A DNA stretch of 64,000 nucleotides. It comes from an uncultured Desulfurococcaceae archaeon (GTDB lineage Archaea > Thermoproteota > Thermoprotei_A > Sulfolobales > NBVN01). Positions within the stretch are counted from its first letter, which is position 1. Every line of letters starts with the position of its first letter. The translations under genes were made by a program, and so were the position numbers. Location: positions 149,144 through 213,143 of the forward strand of contig CAZXJO010000001.1 in assembly GCA_964641155.1 (NCBI GenBank). Direction: 5' to 3'. Positions 1,302 to 51,818 of this stretch are shown here, one piece after another. The notes below the pieces were generated by a model. It ran no database searches, was not told the origin of the DNA, and saw only the letters and a list, made by a program, of their open reading frames with translations.

Positions 1302-1470
1302 TTTAACGAGTTCCCAGACCCTAATGATATCACCTTGAAACCAGGTTTTGGTATATTGACTCTCAATAAACTTTATTATCAGATGCCTTAATAATTATCA
1401 CGGTGGTCGCATAGCTAAGCGTAAGAGGGGTGCACCGGTAGCAGCATTCATATATAATCCCAGAGTACTT

Positions 1471-2064
1471 ATGCGATTGTTAGACACTGTTAAGGACTTC
1501 GATATAGAGCTTTTCGTACCAAATGATGTTAAATCGCTTGCGAACTACCGCGACCTACTACTAGTGGATGATGAGGGCTTAGAGATACTGAAGAGATGCA
1601 TGGACGTGGGTCGGGTCAACTACTACTTAATAAGCGATGATGCTTCGATATATAGATTCATAGTTAGAGCCTTCGGAATTGAAGACGTTAAGGTGCTTCA
1701 GGTGGGGGTGGACGCGGGCAGGAGGTTGGCGTACGTTATACTCTCCGATAACCTACTCCTTAAAGCAGGTTACATCGCAAGGCTTGAAGATTTGATAGAG
1801 ATCATAAATAGGTTTAGGAAGTTCCTAACTCCCGCCAAGGTTGTTGTAAAGTTGGGTAGCTCCACCGGTAATGATGATAACAAACTCGACACTCTCATGA
1901 AGGGACTAGTTCGATCAGGGTTTGAAGTCATAGTAGCAGATGAAAGGAACTCATCCTCTAGACTCTGGAACCCATTAAGCGGCTATAAAACCAAGTTCAC
2001 AACCGACATGTATGCTGCATTGAACATAGTGTTCAGGGAGGGAGTTAAGGTTAGCATGACCTAA
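1471..2064 (+). CDS. hypothetical protein
   Basis: 197-aa ORF preceded by a CATATATAAT TATA-like box. I recognise no motif. Confidence 0.4.
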   Translation: MRLLDTVKDFDIELFVPNDVKSLANYRDLLLVDDEGLEILKRCMDVGRVNYYLISDDASIYRFIVRAFGIEDVKVLQVGVDAGRRLAYVILSDNLLLKAGYIARLEDLIEIINRFRKFLTPAKVVVKLGSSTGNDDNKLDTLMKGLVRSGFEVIVADERNSSSRLWNPLSGYKTKFTTDMYAALNIVFREGVKVSMT

Positions 2065-16767: not shown

Positions 16768-17049
16768 TTAACTTATGTCCGTTCTAGTGAGTAGCTCGGT
16801 CTCCACGCTTTCAACACCATTTAAACCCCTTATGATGCCTTCAACCTCCTCAGTACCACCTTCAACGTCCTCAGGCATTAGTAAGTAGAGTCTAAGGACG
16901 TGAAGCCCAAATGCCACATACACCTTCTCACTTTTAACTAGCTCGTATTTAGAAGGTAACACCTTCTTCAGGTCGGCAACTACACCATCTAAATCGACGT
17001 CTACGTCTTTAGGGTAAACCTTAAGAACAGCTAATATCTTAGCCGTAAT
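16768..17049 (-). CDS. translation elongation factor aEF-1 beta (start codon non-canonical or uncertain)
   Basis: In-frame translation ..AKILAVLKVYPKDVDVDLDGVVADLKKVLPSKYELVKSEKVYVAFGLHVLRLYLLMPEDVEGGTEEVEGIIRGLNGVESVETELLTR matches the aEF-1beta pattern (VlkVmP..vdld.., iAFGl.al.., egGtd..ee.l..i.GV). The track ORF (GTG 16962) removes the conserved N-terminal strand. Confidence 0.8.
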   Translation of the reverse strand: MTAKILAVLKVYPKDVDVDLDGVVADLKKVLPSKYELVKSEKVYVAFGLHVLRLYLLMPEDVEGGTEEVEGIIRGLNGVESVETELLTRTDIS

Positions 17050-17057
17050 GCATCACC

Positions 17058-17279
17058 TCAAGGTCCTTCGAAACCGCATTTCGGACAAACGTATTTGACG
17101 TTAAACTCCCTGCACATCCTGCAACGCCATATAGTCACTGACCCACAATTAGGGCATAGAAACTTAATACCCTTCTCCAAAGGTGATACTAACTTGCCGC
17201 AACTACTGCATATTGGCGGTGTCGAAGACTCCACTATCACAGGTCCCTTACTACTGGGATGTACTTCTGACTCCATCAT
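17058..17279 (-). CDS. Zn-ribbon protein (COG2888-type, usual upstream partner of aEF-1beta)
   Basis: 73 aa with four CxxC pairs (CSSCGK, CPNCGS, CRMCRE, CPKCGF). Sits directly upstream of aEF-1beta, which I recall as the usual archaeal arrangement. Confidence 0.7.
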   Translation of the reverse strand: MMESEVHPSSKGPVIVESSTPPICSSCGKLVSPLEKGIKFLCPNCGSVTIWRCRMCREFNVKYVCPKCGFEGP

Positions 17280-17393: not shown

Positions 17394-18446
17394 GTGGGTG
17401 TTAACTTAAGGGACCTAATACCTGATAATGTTGTTAAAGCTGTCAATGATTTGAGGGAATTCCACGGGAAAGTCATAGCCATAGATGCCTATAACGCGTT
17501 ATATCAATTCTTAACGGCTATTAGGCAGCCGGATGGAACACCGCTAATGGATTCGAGGGGGAGGGTGACAAGTCACTTAAGCGGTCTGTTCTACAGGACT
17601 ATAAACCTGATGGAAGCATGTATAAAACCCATATACGTATTTGATGGGAAACCGCCCGAGTTGAAATCCAAGGAGATCGCTCAGAGGTCTTTAGTTAGGA
17701 GTGAGGCCTCAGCTAAGTATAAGGAGGCCTTAGAACGTGGTGACTTGGAATCGGCATATAGATACGCCCAAATCTCCTCCAAACTCACTAACGAGATGGT
17801 TGAGGAGGCGAAGAAATTGCTGGAGTACATGGGTATCCCCTACGTTCAAGCACCTTCCGAAGGTGAAGCGCAGGCCGCCTACATGACATTAAAGAACTTG
17901 TCGTGGTCAACAGCTAGCCAGGACTACGACTCAATACTCTTCGGGTCCCCCAGACTTGTGAGGAACTTAACCATTTCAGGTAAGCGTAAATTGCCTAAGA
18001 AAGACATCTACGTTGAGGTCAAGCCGGAGGTCTTAGAACTTAACACCCTGCTAAACGCCTTATCCATAACCAGGGAGCAGTTAATAGACATAGCAATACT
18101 ATTAGGTACCGACTACAACCCAGACGGTGTCAAAGGGGTAGGCCCTAAAACAGCATTGAAACTCATCAAGACCTACGGCTCCCTGGAGAAAGCCCTTAAG
18201 GCCTTACCTGACGCTCAATTCCCCGTAGATCCTTTTAAAATCAAGGAATTCTTCCTGAACCCCCCAGTAACTGATGTGTCCGGGGTTGAGTGGGTTGAAC
18301 CTGATGTAAGACTGATCAAGGAGTTCCTAGTAACTCAACACGACTTCTCCGATGAGAGAGTGATGTCCGCGTTGGAGAGGTTGAAGAAGGCGTTCAAAGA
18401 CTGCGTTAAGTCGAGAGCTAAGGGCCTTGACGCATGGATCAAGTAA
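17394..18446 (+). CDS. fen: flap endonuclease FEN-1
   Basis: (M)[10 protein letters not shown]-terminus, [12 protein letters not shown], the YVFDG.PP..K motif, GEAQAAY, and the H3TH motif [17 protein letters not shown] chose the GTG at 17394 because FEN-1 proteins begin MG(V/A)., and the TATA-like TTTTAAA at 17356-17362 places the transcription start after the upstream TTG/ATG. Confidence 0.9.
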
Positions 18447-18449
18447 AGC

Positions 18450-19136
18450 TCAACATATCTCAGCTTCCTCTATGATTAAGTACCCGACCCAGTGGCTTGG
18501 GTACCAAACCTTCCTACCGGACTTTATGCAGACCCTCCTCCCCCTGAAAAGGGGTGAGCTGGTGACGAACGTTTCGAATTCCCCGCCCTCGCCAACAGGG
18601 TTAATGCTGTACCTTCTACAAACGTCCATGAATTCCTCTAAGTTGCTAAGATTTATCTCACTACCCAACCATTTAATACCTAAGCCGTAAGCCTGCAATG
18701 CGGTGATAATGAATCCCACCGTCCTAACCTCCTCCTGTAATAACGTGTAGGGGTCGTAACTCCATAGGGGTGCTACATGTACCAGGCCTGCCTCCTCGCA
18801 TAATCTATCCACGATTGCTTTTTGGTATCTAGACCCTACAACACCGCTGATCACGTACCTGAACCCGTAATCCCGAAGTTCCTTAAACTTCTTACCCAGC
18901 TCAACTGCCTCCACGTCCTTAATGCCGCTACAGCTCATTAAATCGTAGTCAATGTCTAACAACGTACCGTGTAGGGTAGACCAGTTGACATTCACCGCAT
19001 GGAAGAGCCAAGAATCCTGCCTCAATGGACTGACCACGAGCAACTTCCCTACATCGTAACCTAGGTTTAGAGCCTTAATCAAAGCGTAGTGTGAGTCCTT
19101 CCCACCGCTGTAGAGGACTAACGCCTTCCCACCTAT
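18450..19136 (-). CDS. PP-loop ATPase, diphthine-ammonia ligase (Dph6/MJ0570)-like; start non-canonical or uncertain
   Basis: The track ORF starts at TTG 19082, but the same frame upstream encodes ..IGGKALVLYSGGKDSHYA. This contains the SGGKDS PP-loop that defines the family. The C-terminal EGGEFETFV motif is also present. Confidence 0.7.
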   Translation of the reverse strand: MGGKALVLYSGGKDSHYALIKALNLGYDVGKLLVVSPLRQDSWLFHAVNVNWSTLHGTLLDIDYDLMSCSGIKDVEAVELGKKFKELRDYGFRYVISGVVGSRYQKAIVDRLCEEAGLVHVAPLWSYDPYTLLQEEVRTVGFIITALQAYGLGIKWLGSEINLSNLEEFMDVCRRYSINPVGEGGEFETFVTSSPLFRGRRVCIKSGRKVWYPSHWVGYLIIEEAEIC

Positions 19137-19789
19137 CGAAGAACACCTCTCAAAATATCCAGGGCTGCCTCAACCACGTACATCGAACAGTTAGGGTCCC
19201 CCTTCCTACATATGGAGGCTAAGATGCAGTCCCCACCTACGATGTCTAAGCCTCTTAACAAGTTCTTCCAGAATCCTTGGTTAGTGACCTCATGTAAGCC
19301 GTTGGAATCAGGTAATTTGAGAGATCCGTCAATGTAATACAGTATTAGCCCGCCAAGACCCCCCTTCCTAACTATTAGATCCCTAACATGTAGTACGCCG
19401 CCAACCCTTTCTACATACTTAACCCCATCCCTGAGCAGGACTAGCGATATCCTGCAGTCCCTACATACCTCCCCATCGCTTAGGTCGAAATCCCCAACGA
19501 CGTACAGCCTACTCCGCAAAGACTTAAGGACTTCAAAACCCGTATCAGTTAGTAACACGCCAGCTACCGGGTCAACTACTATTAAACCAGCTTCTGACAA
19601 CCTCCTGATCAAAGTCCTCGCACTGCCCTCACCAATGCCTAGAACGTTGGAAAGCACTTTCCTCCCTGAAGGACCCTTTGCGCACTCAGCTAGGGCCATG
19701 TAGACATGGTATCCGGTGAAGCCAGGCTTAACGTTACCCTTAGGTAGAATCACCTTATCGATGACTTTGAAGACTTCCTCAACACCCAT
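19133..19789 (-). CDS. conserved archaeal protein with N-terminal HTH (DUF4443-like, tentative)
   Basis: 218 aa. GRKVLSNVLGIGEGSARTLIRRLSEAGLI is wHTH-like. The family name comes from memory only. Confidence 0.45.
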   Translation of the reverse strand: MGVEEVFKVIDKVILPKGNVKPGFTGYHVYMALAECAKGPSGRKVLSNVLGIGEGSARTLIRRLSEAGLIVVDPVAGVLLTDTGFEVLKSLRSRLYVVGDFDLSDGEVCRDCRISLVLLRDGVKYVERVGGVLHVRDLIVRKGGLGGLILYYIDGSLKLPDSNGLHEVTNQGFWKNLLRGLDIVGGDCILASICRKGDPNCSMYVVEAALDILRGVLR

Positions 19790-19855
19790 AAACTCCCTAC
19801 ATTAAATGTCACATTATAGCTAAAATTTATTTGGATTCACGGTGAGTAGGTTGGG

Positions 19856-20800
19856 GTGAAGTTATTGAGGAAACTTAGATGTAAGGACTTGATTTCTATT
19901 TCAGACCTCAGTAGGGAAGAACTGATCAGCTTGCTGGAGACGTCGAAACTCTTTAAGACCAGGTATTACTCCGGCGAGAGGGTAATCAAAGTGTTAGCCG
20001 GTAAGTGCTTAGCGATGATATTCCAAAAACCCAGCACTAGGACCAGAGTTAGCTTTGAAGTCGCTATGTACCAGCTAGGCGGACACTCGCTCTACCTTAA
20101 TTGGAACGACCTTCAACTAGGGAGAGGTGAGACGATAGCTGACACTGCCAGAGTCCTGAGCAGGTACGTAGACGGGATAGTTGCCAGGGTTTCAAGGCAC
20201 TCAGACCTACTGGAACTGGCTAAACACTCATCCATACCCGTAATTAACGCCTTAAGCGATTTAGAACACCCATGCCAGGCGCTAGCCGACATATTCACCA
20301 TCTGGGAGAAGAAAGGGAGGTTAGAAGGCGTTAAATTAGCTTTCGTCGGAGACGGCACTGACAACGTCCTTAACTCGCTACTATTAGCCGGAGCTAAGCT
20401 CGGAATGAACATCTCTATATCAACCCCAAAGGGCTACGACCCGAGAGAGGAAGTGTTGAAGGTAGCTGAAAGCGATGCTCGAAGGCACGGGTCAACGATC
20501 GAGGTGGTTAGGGAGCCCGAAGCAGCTGTTAGGGGAGCGGACGTTGTGTACACTGATGTCTGGGTGAGTATGGGACAGGAAGCTGAGAGGGCTAAAAGGA
20601 TTGCAGACCTCAGCATGTATAGGGTCACCGTCGATTTGATGATGCTGGCTAAGGAGGACGCCATCTTCATGCACTGCCTACCTGCTAAGAGGGGCGAGGA
20701 AGTGGTTGATGAGGTAATAGACGGTAAGTGGTCTGCGGTATGGGATCAGGCGGAGAACAGGCTTCACACTCAAAAGGCGGTGTTAGCGCTTCTTCTTTGA
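19856..20800 (+). CDS. argF: ornithine carbamoyltransferase
   Basis: [20 protein letters not shown] and [13 protein letters not shown] motifs; the latter two are OTCase-type. GTG start. Confidence 0.85.
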
Positions 20801-51612: not shown

Positions 51613-51818
51613 TGTCTAAAGTTCTTTAAAAGTGCTTAGGTCATTGCGTGGGTTTCTCATCAGTTATCAGCGCTTATATACCTAATTCATCCCATGCTTT
51701 CCTAGTATATAAAATCCTTAAAAATGCATAATAATGTGAAAGGTGGTTACGTATCCAGTTCTACGGTGGGAGGAGGTACTGGGGCCTGAGGCTGAGGATC
51801 GAAGCTGTTGAGGCCCTA

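What the first reader, a model, noticed from the sequence alone, without database searches (positions are those of the whole stretch)
19080..19172. Dph6-like PP-loop ATPase: the SGGKDS motif lies upstream of any canonical start; candidate AUA start overlaps the upstream stop
The frame of ORF 18450..19082 stays open back to TGA at 19172-19170. It encodes G-S-P-G-Y-F-E-R-C-S-S-I-G-G-K-A-L-V-L-Y-S-G-G-K-D-S-H-Y-A before the TTG at 19082, and this stretch has no ATG, GTG or TTG. SGGKDS is the ATP-pyrophosphatase loop that defines the family, so it must be translated.

The position expected for the start (M-GGKALVLYSGGKDS) is an ATA at 19136-19134. This overlaps the TAG stop (19135-19133) of the upstream gene as ATAG. 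GAGAGGTG lies 7 nt upstream. Together with aEF-1beta this is the second case in the window of an SD-like motif plus a near-cognate AUN codon at an operon-internal junction.
Basis: partly seen in the sequence, partly recalled or inferred. Interest (0 to 1): 0.6.

Follow-up and report, generated by a model that had tools for sequence, protein, structure and literature searches.

The report
Dph6 gene starting at AUA codon
An enzyme gene needed to finish the diphthamide modification of elongation factor 2 in a hot-spring archaeon has no normal start codon and almost certainly starts at AUA behind a strong ribosome-binding site; dozens of other genes in this genome do likewise, and gene finders cut them short.

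Summary
The minus-strand frame is open from TGA 19172-19170. It has no ATG, GTG or TTG before TTG 19082. It encodes the SGGKDS PP-loop at 19109-19092. ATA 19136-19134 overlaps the upstream TAG as ATAG, and GAGAGGTG ends 7 nt upstream.

The protein is a bona fide archaeal Dph6 (TIGR03679 above cut-off). Family and PDB alignments put residue 1 at or next to the ATA. Six related genomes from two genera also lack a canonical start there (ATA, GTA or ATT). Two further lineages use CTG or ATA. About 45 other orthologs have ATG, GTG or TTG at that position. The pattern of substitutions across codon positions switches to the dph6 frame exactly at the ATA.

This is not an isolated case. eS26 (ACG), aEF-1beta (ACG), aRF1, GatD, HMG-CoA reductase and others show the same arrangement. 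About 2-3% of genes have a near-cognate codon 5-9 nt behind GGTG, in frame. This is far above the out-of-frame background and higher than in two control genomes.

Public databases hold only the truncated 210-aa product. Earlier reports of this scan describe the same phenomenon in other archaea, including Zestosphaera.

The parts
18450..19136 (-). dph6 (diphthine-ammonia ligase) coding sequence as proposed: 228 codons from ATA 19136-19134 to the stop at 18452-18450
   Evidence: TIGR03679 scores 217.6 bits (cut-off 197.3) and PF01902 gives E 4e-46. PDB 2D13 and 3RJZ align from query residue 17 = chain residue 8. It is the only DUF71-family gene in the genome.
19134..19136 (-). Proposed AUA start codon, overlapping the upstream stop as ATAG
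   Evidence: The homologous codon is ATA in 3 other genomes, GTA in 1 and ATT in 2, and ATG/GTG/TTG in about 45 others.
19144..19151 (-). Shine-Dalgarno-like GAGAGGTG, 7 nt before the ATA, inside the end of the upstream gene
   Evidence: In this genome the GGTG spacing before canonical starts peaks at 5 and 7 nt. The same GAGAGGTG-7 nt arrangement precedes ACG of eS26 and ATA of dph6 in an unrelated Sulfolobales MAG.
19092..19109 (-). SGGKDS PP-loop (ATP pyrophosphatase motif), codons 10-15 of the proposed protein
   Evidence: It is invariant in all orthologs as [ST]GGKDS.
19080..19082 (-). First canonical start (TTG), used by gene callers; it gives a 210-aa product without beta-strand 1 and the PP-loop
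   Evidence: The exact 210-aa sequence is in the public protein collection and the 228-aa one is not.
19170..19172 (-). In-frame TGA that bounds the dph6 frame upstream
19133..19789 (-). Upstream gene of the two-gene unit: PH0730-like winged-helix N-domain plus DUF4443; its stop is TAG 19133-19135
   Evidence: Pfam PF22167, PF14544 (below cut-off) and PF21715. It is the conserved immediate upstream neighbour of dph6 in most Sulfolobales/Desulfurococcales loci examined.
   Evidence: NF001670 profile position 2 matches residue 4 of the stop-to-stop translation. Relatives have ATG/TTG/GTG at the codon homologous to ACG.

Best explanation
The gene is an intact, functional dph6. Its mRNA is the second cistron of a conserved DUF4443-dph6 unit. 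Translation starts at AUA 19136-19134. Shown: no canonical start is available. The coding constraint begins at this codon. A GAGAGGUG Shine-Dalgarno sequence sits at this genome's preferred 7-nt spacing. The same arrangement is conserved in related species. Inferred: the 30S subunit is positioned by SD/anti-SD pairing. It is probably also delivered by ribosomes terminating on the overlapping UAG (AUAG has the same geometry as the common AUGA overlap). Initiator Met-tRNA (CAU anticodon) then pairs with AUA through a third-position mismatch, giving M-G-G-K-A-L-V-L-Y-S-G-G-K-D-S. This is one instance of a habit of this genus and its neighbours, in which ACG, AUA, AUU, CUG, GUA and AUC behind GGUG serve as start codons for roughly 2-3% of genes.
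For: No ATG, GTG or TTG lies between TGA 19172 and TTG 19082. Pfam profile position 2 aligns to residue 15, TIGR03679 position 2 to residue 18 and PDB chain residue 8 to residue 17, so residue 1 falls at residues 10-14; the ATA is residue 12. Orthologs in G001-G004 (same genus) and G008/G019 (a second genus) have ATA x3, GTA x1 and ATT x2 with no canonical start. G004 has TAA immediately before the ATA. Genus g3 has only CTG, and the unrelated MAG KC_007 has GAGAGGTG-7 nt-ATA. Mean pairwise differences at dph6-frame codon positions 1/2/3 are 0.61/0.41/0.39 upstream of the ATA, which is the upstream gene's frame. They are 0.09/0.08/0.35 for codons 2-18. dph2 and dph5 are present and this is the only DUF71 gene, so the pathway needs it. 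Genome-wide, 44 genes have an in-frame SD-anchored near-cognate codon ahead of the first canonical start, against 16 and 7 in the other two frames (p = 6e-8). Controls G032 and G027 show 6 vs 5/1 and 5 vs 3/3. For 9 of 10 sampled genes, NCBIfam homology begins upstream of the first canonical codon. eS26 has ACG or ATA in 6 genomes where 20 others have ATG/GTG/TTG.
Against: In Sulfolobus solfataricus, aIF1 discriminates against AUU in vitro (PMC4705826), and aIF1 is present here. Near-cognate starts should therefore be weak unless this lineage differs. GTA in G002 differs from AUG at two positions. The SD lies inside the upstream gene's conserved C-terminal codons (LRG), so part of its conservation may be protein-coding constraint. 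SD-led initiation and termination-reinitiation cannot be separated by sequence alone. The 16S rRNA 3' end is missing from this MAG, so the anti-SD is assumed from knowledge of related archaea.
Confidence: 0.8

Rival explanations
1. Initiation is non-canonical but uses another codon between 19136 and the PP-loop, for example AAG 19127-19125 or TTA 19121-19119, rather than the ATA.
For: AAG is also a one-base neighbour of AUG. A second GGTG (ATAGGTGGG) lies 8 nt before TTA (one search lists it as an SD-anchored hit).
Against: AAG is AAA or AGG in relatives. Only the ATA/GTA/ATT position is conserved as an NUN codon in all seven genomes. Canonical starts of other lineages align to this position or one or two codons from it, 7-10 codons before the motif. 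A start at TTA would shorten beta-strand 1.
Confidence: 0.07
2. The mRNA is edited at the start codon (A-to-I turning AUA into AUI, which reads as AUG; C-to-U turning ACG into AUG), so initiation is in fact canonical at the RNA level.
For: ATA, GTA and ACG would each become a canonical start after one deamination. ACG-to-AUG start-codon editing is known in plant organelles (own knowledge).
Against: ATT, ATC and CTG starts, seen in the same genomes and at the same dph6 position in genus g5 and g3, cannot be repaired by deamination. No mRNA editing system is known in archaea (own knowledge). This could not be tested here because there is no RNA data.
Confidence: 0.05
3. A programmed -1 ribosomal frameshift at the end of the upstream gene makes a DUF4443-Dph6 fusion protein, so no start codon is needed.
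For: The dph6 frame is the -1 frame of the upstream gene, and in this genome it is open for 12 codons before the upstream stop.
Against: No slippery heptamer is present, and the last upstream codons differ between species (CGA TAG, CAG TAG, AAA TAG, ACA TAG). In G004, G008 and G019 an in-frame stop lies 0-1 codons before the candidate start, leaving no room for a shift. No fused homologs were seen among 96 loci. All other lineages have a separate canonical start.
Confidence: 0.03
4. The gene is decaying. Only the 210-aa product from TTG 19082 is made (inactive, no PP-loop), or nothing is made.
For: Gene callers chose this start, and the public collection holds only that product.
Against: There is strong purifying selection on codons 2-18. 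The PP-loop is invariant in 7 genomes without a canonical start. In G003 the first canonical codon is 28 codons after the ATA (codon 40 of the stop-to-stop frame). dph2 and dph5 are retained and there is no paralog.
Confidence: 0.03
5. A sequencing or assembly error removed an ATG.
For: The genome is a metagenome-assembled genome, and reads could not be inspected.
Against: The same absence of a canonical start is seen in six other assemblies from different studies and sites, plus two further lineages.
Confidence: 0.01

Closest known systems
Rare non-canonical start codons of bacteria (AUU of E. coli infC and pcnB, own knowledge; the non-canonical initiation codons found by N-terminal proteomics in Deinococcus deserti, PMC2830850)
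   Same: A one-base neighbour of AUG is used behind a ribosome-binding site. It is conserved among relatives and missed by gene finders.
   Different: This case is in an archaeon with aIF1/aIF2-type initiation. It involves AUA, ACG and GUA as well as AUU and CUG. It affects an estimated 2-3% of genes, including eS26, aEF-1beta and aRF1. There is no sign of infC-like autoregulation.
Translational coupling by termination-reinitiation at ATGA/TGATG overlaps in archaea and bacteria (Huber et al. 2019, PMC6728339; PMC10666635)
   Same: The second gene of a co-directional pair overlaps the first by 4 nt (AUAG here, AUGA there). An SD lies inside the upstream gene.
   Different: The restart codon is AUA, not AUG. 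Dependence on upstream translation is untested. Other near-cognate starts in this genome (eS26) are not at gene overlaps.
Archaeal Dph6 / DUF71 PP-loop ATPases (TIGR03679; PH1257 PDB 2D13; PF0828 PDB 3RJZ; de Crecy-Lagard et al. 2012, PMC3541065)
   Same: Full-length match with the SGGKDS PP-loop and the GEGGEFETF motif. Single copy in a genome that has dph2 and dph5.
   Different: Only the start codon differs. The conserved upstream DUF4443 partner gene is not mentioned in the passages of that paper that I searched.
Near-cognate starts reported earlier in this scan for other archaea (Zestosphaera rad50, Bathyarchaeia purF/dnaG, Micrarchaeota leuS; unchecked AI notes)
   Same: ACG, ATA, ATT or CTG 5-8 nt behind a GGTG-type SD where relatives have ATG.
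   Different: Different genes and genomes. Here the frequency was measured against out-of-frame and control-genome backgrounds.

Membership tests
Dph6, archaeal diphthine-ammonia ligase (TIGR03679 / PF01902) | Score above the curated equivalog cut-off over the full length | tested here: met
   TIGR03679 scores 217.6 bits against a cut-off of 197.3, covering profile positions 2-218 of 218. PF01902 gives E 4.4e-46.
Dph6, archaeal diphthine-ammonia ligase (TIGR03679 / PF01902) | N-terminal PP-loop SGGKDS after beta-strand 1 | tested here: met
   LVLYSGGKDS is encoded at 19121-19092 and aligns to VLYSGGKDS of PDB 2D13 and 3RJZ. It is present only if translation starts upstream of TTG 19082.
Dph6, archaeal diphthine-ammonia ligase (TIGR03679 / PF01902) | Genomic context: dph2 and dph5 present, with no second DUF71 paralog that could take the role | tested here: met
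Dph6, archaeal diphthine-ammonia ligase (TIGR03679 / PF01902) | ATP-dependent amidation of diphthine on EF-2 | not testable with these tools
   Needs an enzyme assay.
Genes with a conserved near-cognate start codon | No ATG/GTG/TTG between the upstream in-frame stop and the conserved N-terminus | tested here: met
   The same holds in 6 related genomes.
Genes with a conserved near-cognate start codon | Coding constraint begins at the candidate codon | tested here: met
   The codon-position pattern of substitutions switches frame at the ATA.
Genes with a conserved near-cognate start codon | Ribosome-binding site at the spacing used by canonical starts of the same genome | tested here: met
   GGTG lies 7 nt before the ATA. 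Genome-wide spacing peaks are at 5 nt (84 genes) and 7 nt (86 genes).
Genes with a conserved near-cognate start codon | Protein N-terminus or initiating ribosomes mapped to the codon | not testable with these tools
Termination-reinitiation coupled gene pair | Co-directional pair with a 4-nt stop/start overlap | tested here: met
   AUAG at 19136-19133. Relatives have ATAG, GTAG or ATTAG. G010 has the canonical ATGA at the same junction.
Termination-reinitiation coupled gene pair | Downstream translation depends on upstream translation | not testable with these tools
   Needs a reporter with a premature stop in the upstream gene.
Programmed -1 frameshift fusion | Conserved slippery heptamer in an overlap that is open in both frames | tested here: not met
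   There is no X XXY YYZ site. In-frame stops lie 0-1 codons before the candidate start in G004, G008 and G019.

The most novel reading that the evidence does not exclude
In this uncultured hot-spring genus and its neighbours (Sulfolobales/Desulfurococcales MAGs), start-codon selection is relaxed as a lineage trait. Near-cognate codons (ACG, AUA, AUU, CUG, GUA, AUC) placed 5-8 nt behind a strong GGUG Shine-Dalgarno work well enough to drive even highly expressed, essential genes (eS26, aEF-1beta, aRF1, GatD, HMG-CoA reductase). Genes also flip between canonical and near-cognate starts on short evolutionary time scales: aEF-1beta has ATG in the relatives examined and ACG here. This would imply a change in the initiation fidelity machinery (aIF1, aIF2, initiator tRNA modification or the 16S decoding site), not gene-by-gene down-tuning.
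Probability: 0.5. Interest if true: 0.72.

Novelty: new variant of a known kind. Interest (0 to 1): 0.55.

Why it matters
There are three reasons.

1. Annotation. The public protein for this gene lacks its catalytic PP-loop. By my estimate 30-45 genes per genome in this clade are truncated in the same way, including ribosomal protein eS26, aEF-1beta, aRF1, GatD and HMG-CoA reductase. Pathway reconstructions and structure predictions from these MAGs inherit the error.

2. Mechanism. Reviews of archaeal initiation list only AUG, GUG and UUG (PMC7531240). In vitro work shows that aIF1 rejects AUU (PMC4705826). A lineage that keeps ACG or AUA on essential, abundant proteins gives a natural system for asking what sets start-codon stringency in the aIF1/aIF2 machinery shared with eukaryotes.

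3. Gene finding. A simple rule (GGTG, 5-9 nt, in-frame near-cognate codon, no canonical start upstream of the conserved N-terminus) recovers these genes and could be added to archaeal gene callers.

Tried and rejected
- 16S anti-SD: the MAG has no 16S 3' end.
- Initiator tRNA: aragorn found only one tRNA-Met(CAT), with G1-C72, which is elongator-like. By eye, a gene at C3:106353 reads as an A1:U72 initiator tRNA with three introns and a CUCAUA anticodon loop. aragorn does not confirm this, so I use it only as a hint that the anticodon is unchanged.
- aIF1: it is present and well conserved. A genus-specific K-to-W change (DLWK) has no known meaning, and I draw no conclusion from it.
- First ortholog screen: it was swamped by shadow ORFs because the two genomes are similar at the DNA level. 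It became usable only after removing ORFs overlapped by longer ones.
- Literature: four full-text searches for archaeal AUA/ACG/near-cognate initiation found no paper describing this in Thermoproteota. Absence from an open-access library is not proof of absence.
- Bacterial-type promoter/terminator scan of 18300-19950: it found nothing and is not suited to archaea.
- Rejected readings: frameshift fusion, pseudogene and sequencing error (see the rival explanations).

Full report
**The observation**

On the minus strand, the frame of ORF 18450..19082 stays open back to TGA 19172-19170. It reads GSPGYFERCSSIGGKALVLYSGGKDSHYA before TTG 19082, with no ATG, GTG or TTG in between. ATA 19136-19134 overlaps TAG 19135-19133, the stop of the upstream ORF 19133..19789. 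GAGAGGTG occupies 19151-19144, which leaves 7 nt (TTCTTCG) before the ATA. Every element of the finding is therefore present at the stated coordinates.

**What the gene is**

- The stop-to-stop translation matches Pfam PF01902 (E 4e-46), starting at residue 15 on profile position 2.
- It matches the NCBIfam equivalog TIGR03679 'Dph6_archaeal' at 217.6 bits against a cut-off of 197.3.
- Its closest solved relatives are PH1257 (2D13) and PF0828 (3RJZ). Chain residue 8 aligns to query residue 17, so chain residue 1 falls at residue 10. The ATA is residue 12.
- The genome has one DUF71-family gene only, and it has dph2 and dph5. The pathway therefore needs this gene.
- A product starting at TTG 19082 would lack beta-strand 1 and the SGGKDS ATP-pyrophosphatase loop.

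**Source organism**

The genome is a 1.39-Mb, 11-contig MAG. Its nearest named relatives are hot-spring 'Sulfolobales archaeon' and 'Desulfurococcaceae archaeon' MAGs.

**Comparative evidence for dph6**

I extracted the junction from 30 relatives and from 66 loci of the species-representative collection. About 45 archaeal orthologs have ATG, GTG or TTG 7-10 codons before [ST]GGKDS. The exceptions are:

- Four genomes of the window's own genus. The homologous codon is ATA in G001, G003 and G004, and GTA in G002.
- Two genomes of a second genus (G008, G019), which read TAA GTA ATT AGT GAG.
- Genus g3, which has only CTG CTG after the in-frame stop.
- The unrelated MAG KC_007, which has GAGAGGTG-7 nt-ATA again.

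None of these has a canonical start between the upstream stop and the PP-loop. In G004 an in-frame TAA directly precedes the ATA, so the reading frame cannot begin earlier. These assemblies come from different studies, which rules out a sequencing error.

**Selection test**

I aligned the five genomes of the genus and counted mean pairwise differences by dph6-frame codon position.

| Region | Position 1 | Position 2 | Position 3 |
|---|---|---|---|
| Upstream of the ATA | 0.61 | 0.41 | 0.39 |
| Codons 2-18 | 0.09 | 0.08 | 0.35 |
| Codons 19-70 | 0.28 | 0.18 | 0.48 |

Upstream of the ATA, the peak at dph6 position 1 corresponds to the third codon position of the upstream gene. The coding constraint therefore switches to the dph6 frame at the ATA. 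The segment that gene finders discard is the most conserved part of the protein.

**Ribosome-binding site and coupling**

GGTG lies within 20 nt upstream of the first canonical start of 344 of 1358 gene-like ORFs. The spacing peaks sharply at 5 nt (84 genes) and 7 nt (86 genes). The dph6 ATA sits at 7 nt.

The AUAG overlap has the same geometry as the AUGA overlaps that support termination-reinitiation in archaea (PMC6728339). G010 has ATGA at the same junction. A single G-to-A change, ATGA to ATAA or ATAG, would keep the upstream stop while degrading the start. I cannot tell from sequence how much initiation is SD-led and how much is reinitiation.

**Rivals**

- **Frameshift fusion.** A -1 frameshift fusion with the upstream protein is unlikely. 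There is no slippery site, the last upstream codons differ between species, three genomes have a stop 0-1 codons before the candidate start, and no fused homolog was seen.
- **Pseudogene.** This reading conflicts with the selection test and with the retained pathway.
- **RNA editing.** Deamination could repair ATA, GTA or ACG, but not the ATT and CTG found at the same position in other genera.

**The case is not isolated**

The frame reads TGA | TGC ATT ACG GCT AAG, and NF001670 profile position 2 aligns to residue 4. All relatives with a readable N-terminus have ATG, TTG or GTG exactly where this genome has ACG. The closest one, G003, reads ACT ATG GCT AAG. The ACG is 7 nt after GGTG.

A screen of 363 ortholog pairs between this genome and 390 kb of G003 found further genes whose conserved N-termini have no canonical start in both genomes:

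- eS26: GAGAGGTG-7 nt-ACG. The first canonical codon is number 55, and NF006816 position 2 aligns to residue 12.
- PorC: ATT is the first codon after TAG.
- aRF1: ATA.
- A CdvB-like protein: ATA is the first codon after TAA.
- Rio1: AGGTGG-6 nt-ATA.
- A protein at window 1360-2061: ATA.

For eS26, six genomes carry ACG or ATA where 20 others carry ATG, GTG or TTG.

**Genome-wide count**

I counted gene-like ORFs with ATA, ATT, ATC, ACG, CTG or GTA placed 5-9 nt after GGTG and at least 3 codons ahead of the first canonical start.

| Genome | In frame | +1 frame | +2 frame | Binomial p |
|---|---|---|---|---|
| This genome (about 1360 gene-like ORFs) | 44 | 16 | 7 | 6e-8 |
| G003 (390 kb) | 11 | 5 | 2 | 0.014 |
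| Control G032 (400 kb) | 6 | 5 | 1 | 0.11 (controls pooled) |
| Control G027 (400 kb) | 5 | 3 | 3 | (pooled with G032) |

A Fisher test of this genome against the two controls gives p = 0.004. The excess, about 30 genes or 2-3%, is a lower bound, because leaderless genes and other spacings are not counted.

I checked ten of these genes against NCBIfam. For nine, family homology begins upstream of the first canonical codon: GatD, NcsA, HMG-CoA reductase, threonine ammonia-lyase, an MTH1187-family protein, a 2-oxoacid oxidoreductase gamma subunit, an iron alcohol dehydrogenase, a HIT-family protein and a P-type ATPase. For six of them, profile position 1 falls within two residues of the near-cognate codon.

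**Machinery**

aIF1 is present and conserved. By eye, a three-intron initiator tRNA gene at C3:106353 has A1:U72 and a CAU anticodon, but no program confirmed it. Nothing at the DNA level explains the relaxed choice of start codon.

**Literature**

The archaeal initiation review PMC7531240 names only AUG, GUG and UUG as start codons. PMC4705826 reports that S. solfataricus aIF1 rejects AUU in vitro. Non-canonical starts have been shown by proteomics in the bacterium Deinococcus deserti (PMC2830850). My searches found no paper describing this in Thermoproteota.

Earlier notes of this scan, which are unchecked AI notes, describe the same pattern in Zestosphaera, Bathyarchaeia, Micrarchaeota and Asgard genomes, and in other windows of this genome.

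**Consequence and verdict**

The public protein collection contains the truncated 210-aa product and not the 228-aa one.

dph6 most likely starts at AUA 19136-19134; I put this at 0.8. The single gene is a new member of a known kind, a non-canonical start codon. The clade-wide frequency, the inclusion of ACG and GUA, and the use on abundant essential proteins make it a new variant. It is worth experimental follow-up.

Noticed in passing
window 16768-17060 (minus): aEF-1beta has ACG 17046-17044 where all relatives examined have ATG/TTG/GTG. The ACG is specific to this genome; G003 has ATG. A 4-codon out-of-frame ATG mini-ORF (ATG CAT TAC GGC TAA) starts directly after the GGTG of the SD.
   Followed up: yes
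G000 C1:147538-147843 (+), 1.3 kb before the window: Ribosomal protein eS26 has its first canonical codon at position 55. GAGAGGTG-7 nt-ACG sits where other genera have ATG. ACG is found in 5 genomes and ATA in 1. An AT-rich promoter-like stretch lies about 35 nt upstream, so this is not a gene-overlap case.
   Followed up: yes
window 1360-2061 (+), candidate start ATA 1411-1413: A 234-codon ORF with no family match. Its N-terminus is conserved with G003 for 20 codons before the first canonical start (codon 38). CACGGTGGT-CGC-ATA is found in both genomes.
   Followed up: partly
window 1323-1325 (minus): A KaiC/RadA-like ATPase ORF (Walker A GKAGVGKT). An in-frame ATT lies 6 nt after GGTGAT, 8 codons ahead of the first canonical start.
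   Followed up: no
window 51753-51755 (+): A 232-codon ORF with ATC 7 nt after AGGTGG, 22 codons ahead of the first canonical start.
   Followed up: no
window 19133-19789 (minus) and loci L001-L095: The PH0730-like winged-helix/DUF4443 gene is the conserved immediate upstream neighbour of dph6, usually overlapping or abutting it. This holds in most Sulfolobales/Desulfurococcales loci examined but in none of the Pyrobaculum/Thermoproteus, Woesearchaeota or bacterial loci. It may be functionally linked to diphthamide synthesis or its regulation.
   Followed up: partly
G000 C3:106353-106550 (+): By eye, this is an initiator tRNA-Met gene (AGCGGGG...CCCCGCTACCA, A1:U72, anticodon loop CTCATA) interrupted by three introns. 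aragorn does not call it.
   Followed up: partly
G000 C1:273997-274332 (minus), aIF1: The five genomes of this genus share a K-to-W change (FDLWK versus FNLKK) and KDGH versus KNNH in an otherwise highly conserved aIF1. The meaning is unknown.
   Followed up: partly
G000 genome-wide: The spacing between GGTG and canonical starts is bimodal (5 nt and 7-8 nt, with few at 6 nt). This may reflect two registers of SD/anti-SD pairing.
   Followed up: no
G000 C1:270712 region (+), gatD: GatD reads GGTGGT ATT ACG GCT, the same 'ATT ACG' pair as aEF-1beta. NF003217 position 3 aligns to residue 13, so the start is ATT or ACG (codons 8-9), and the first canonical codon is number 33.
   Followed up: partly
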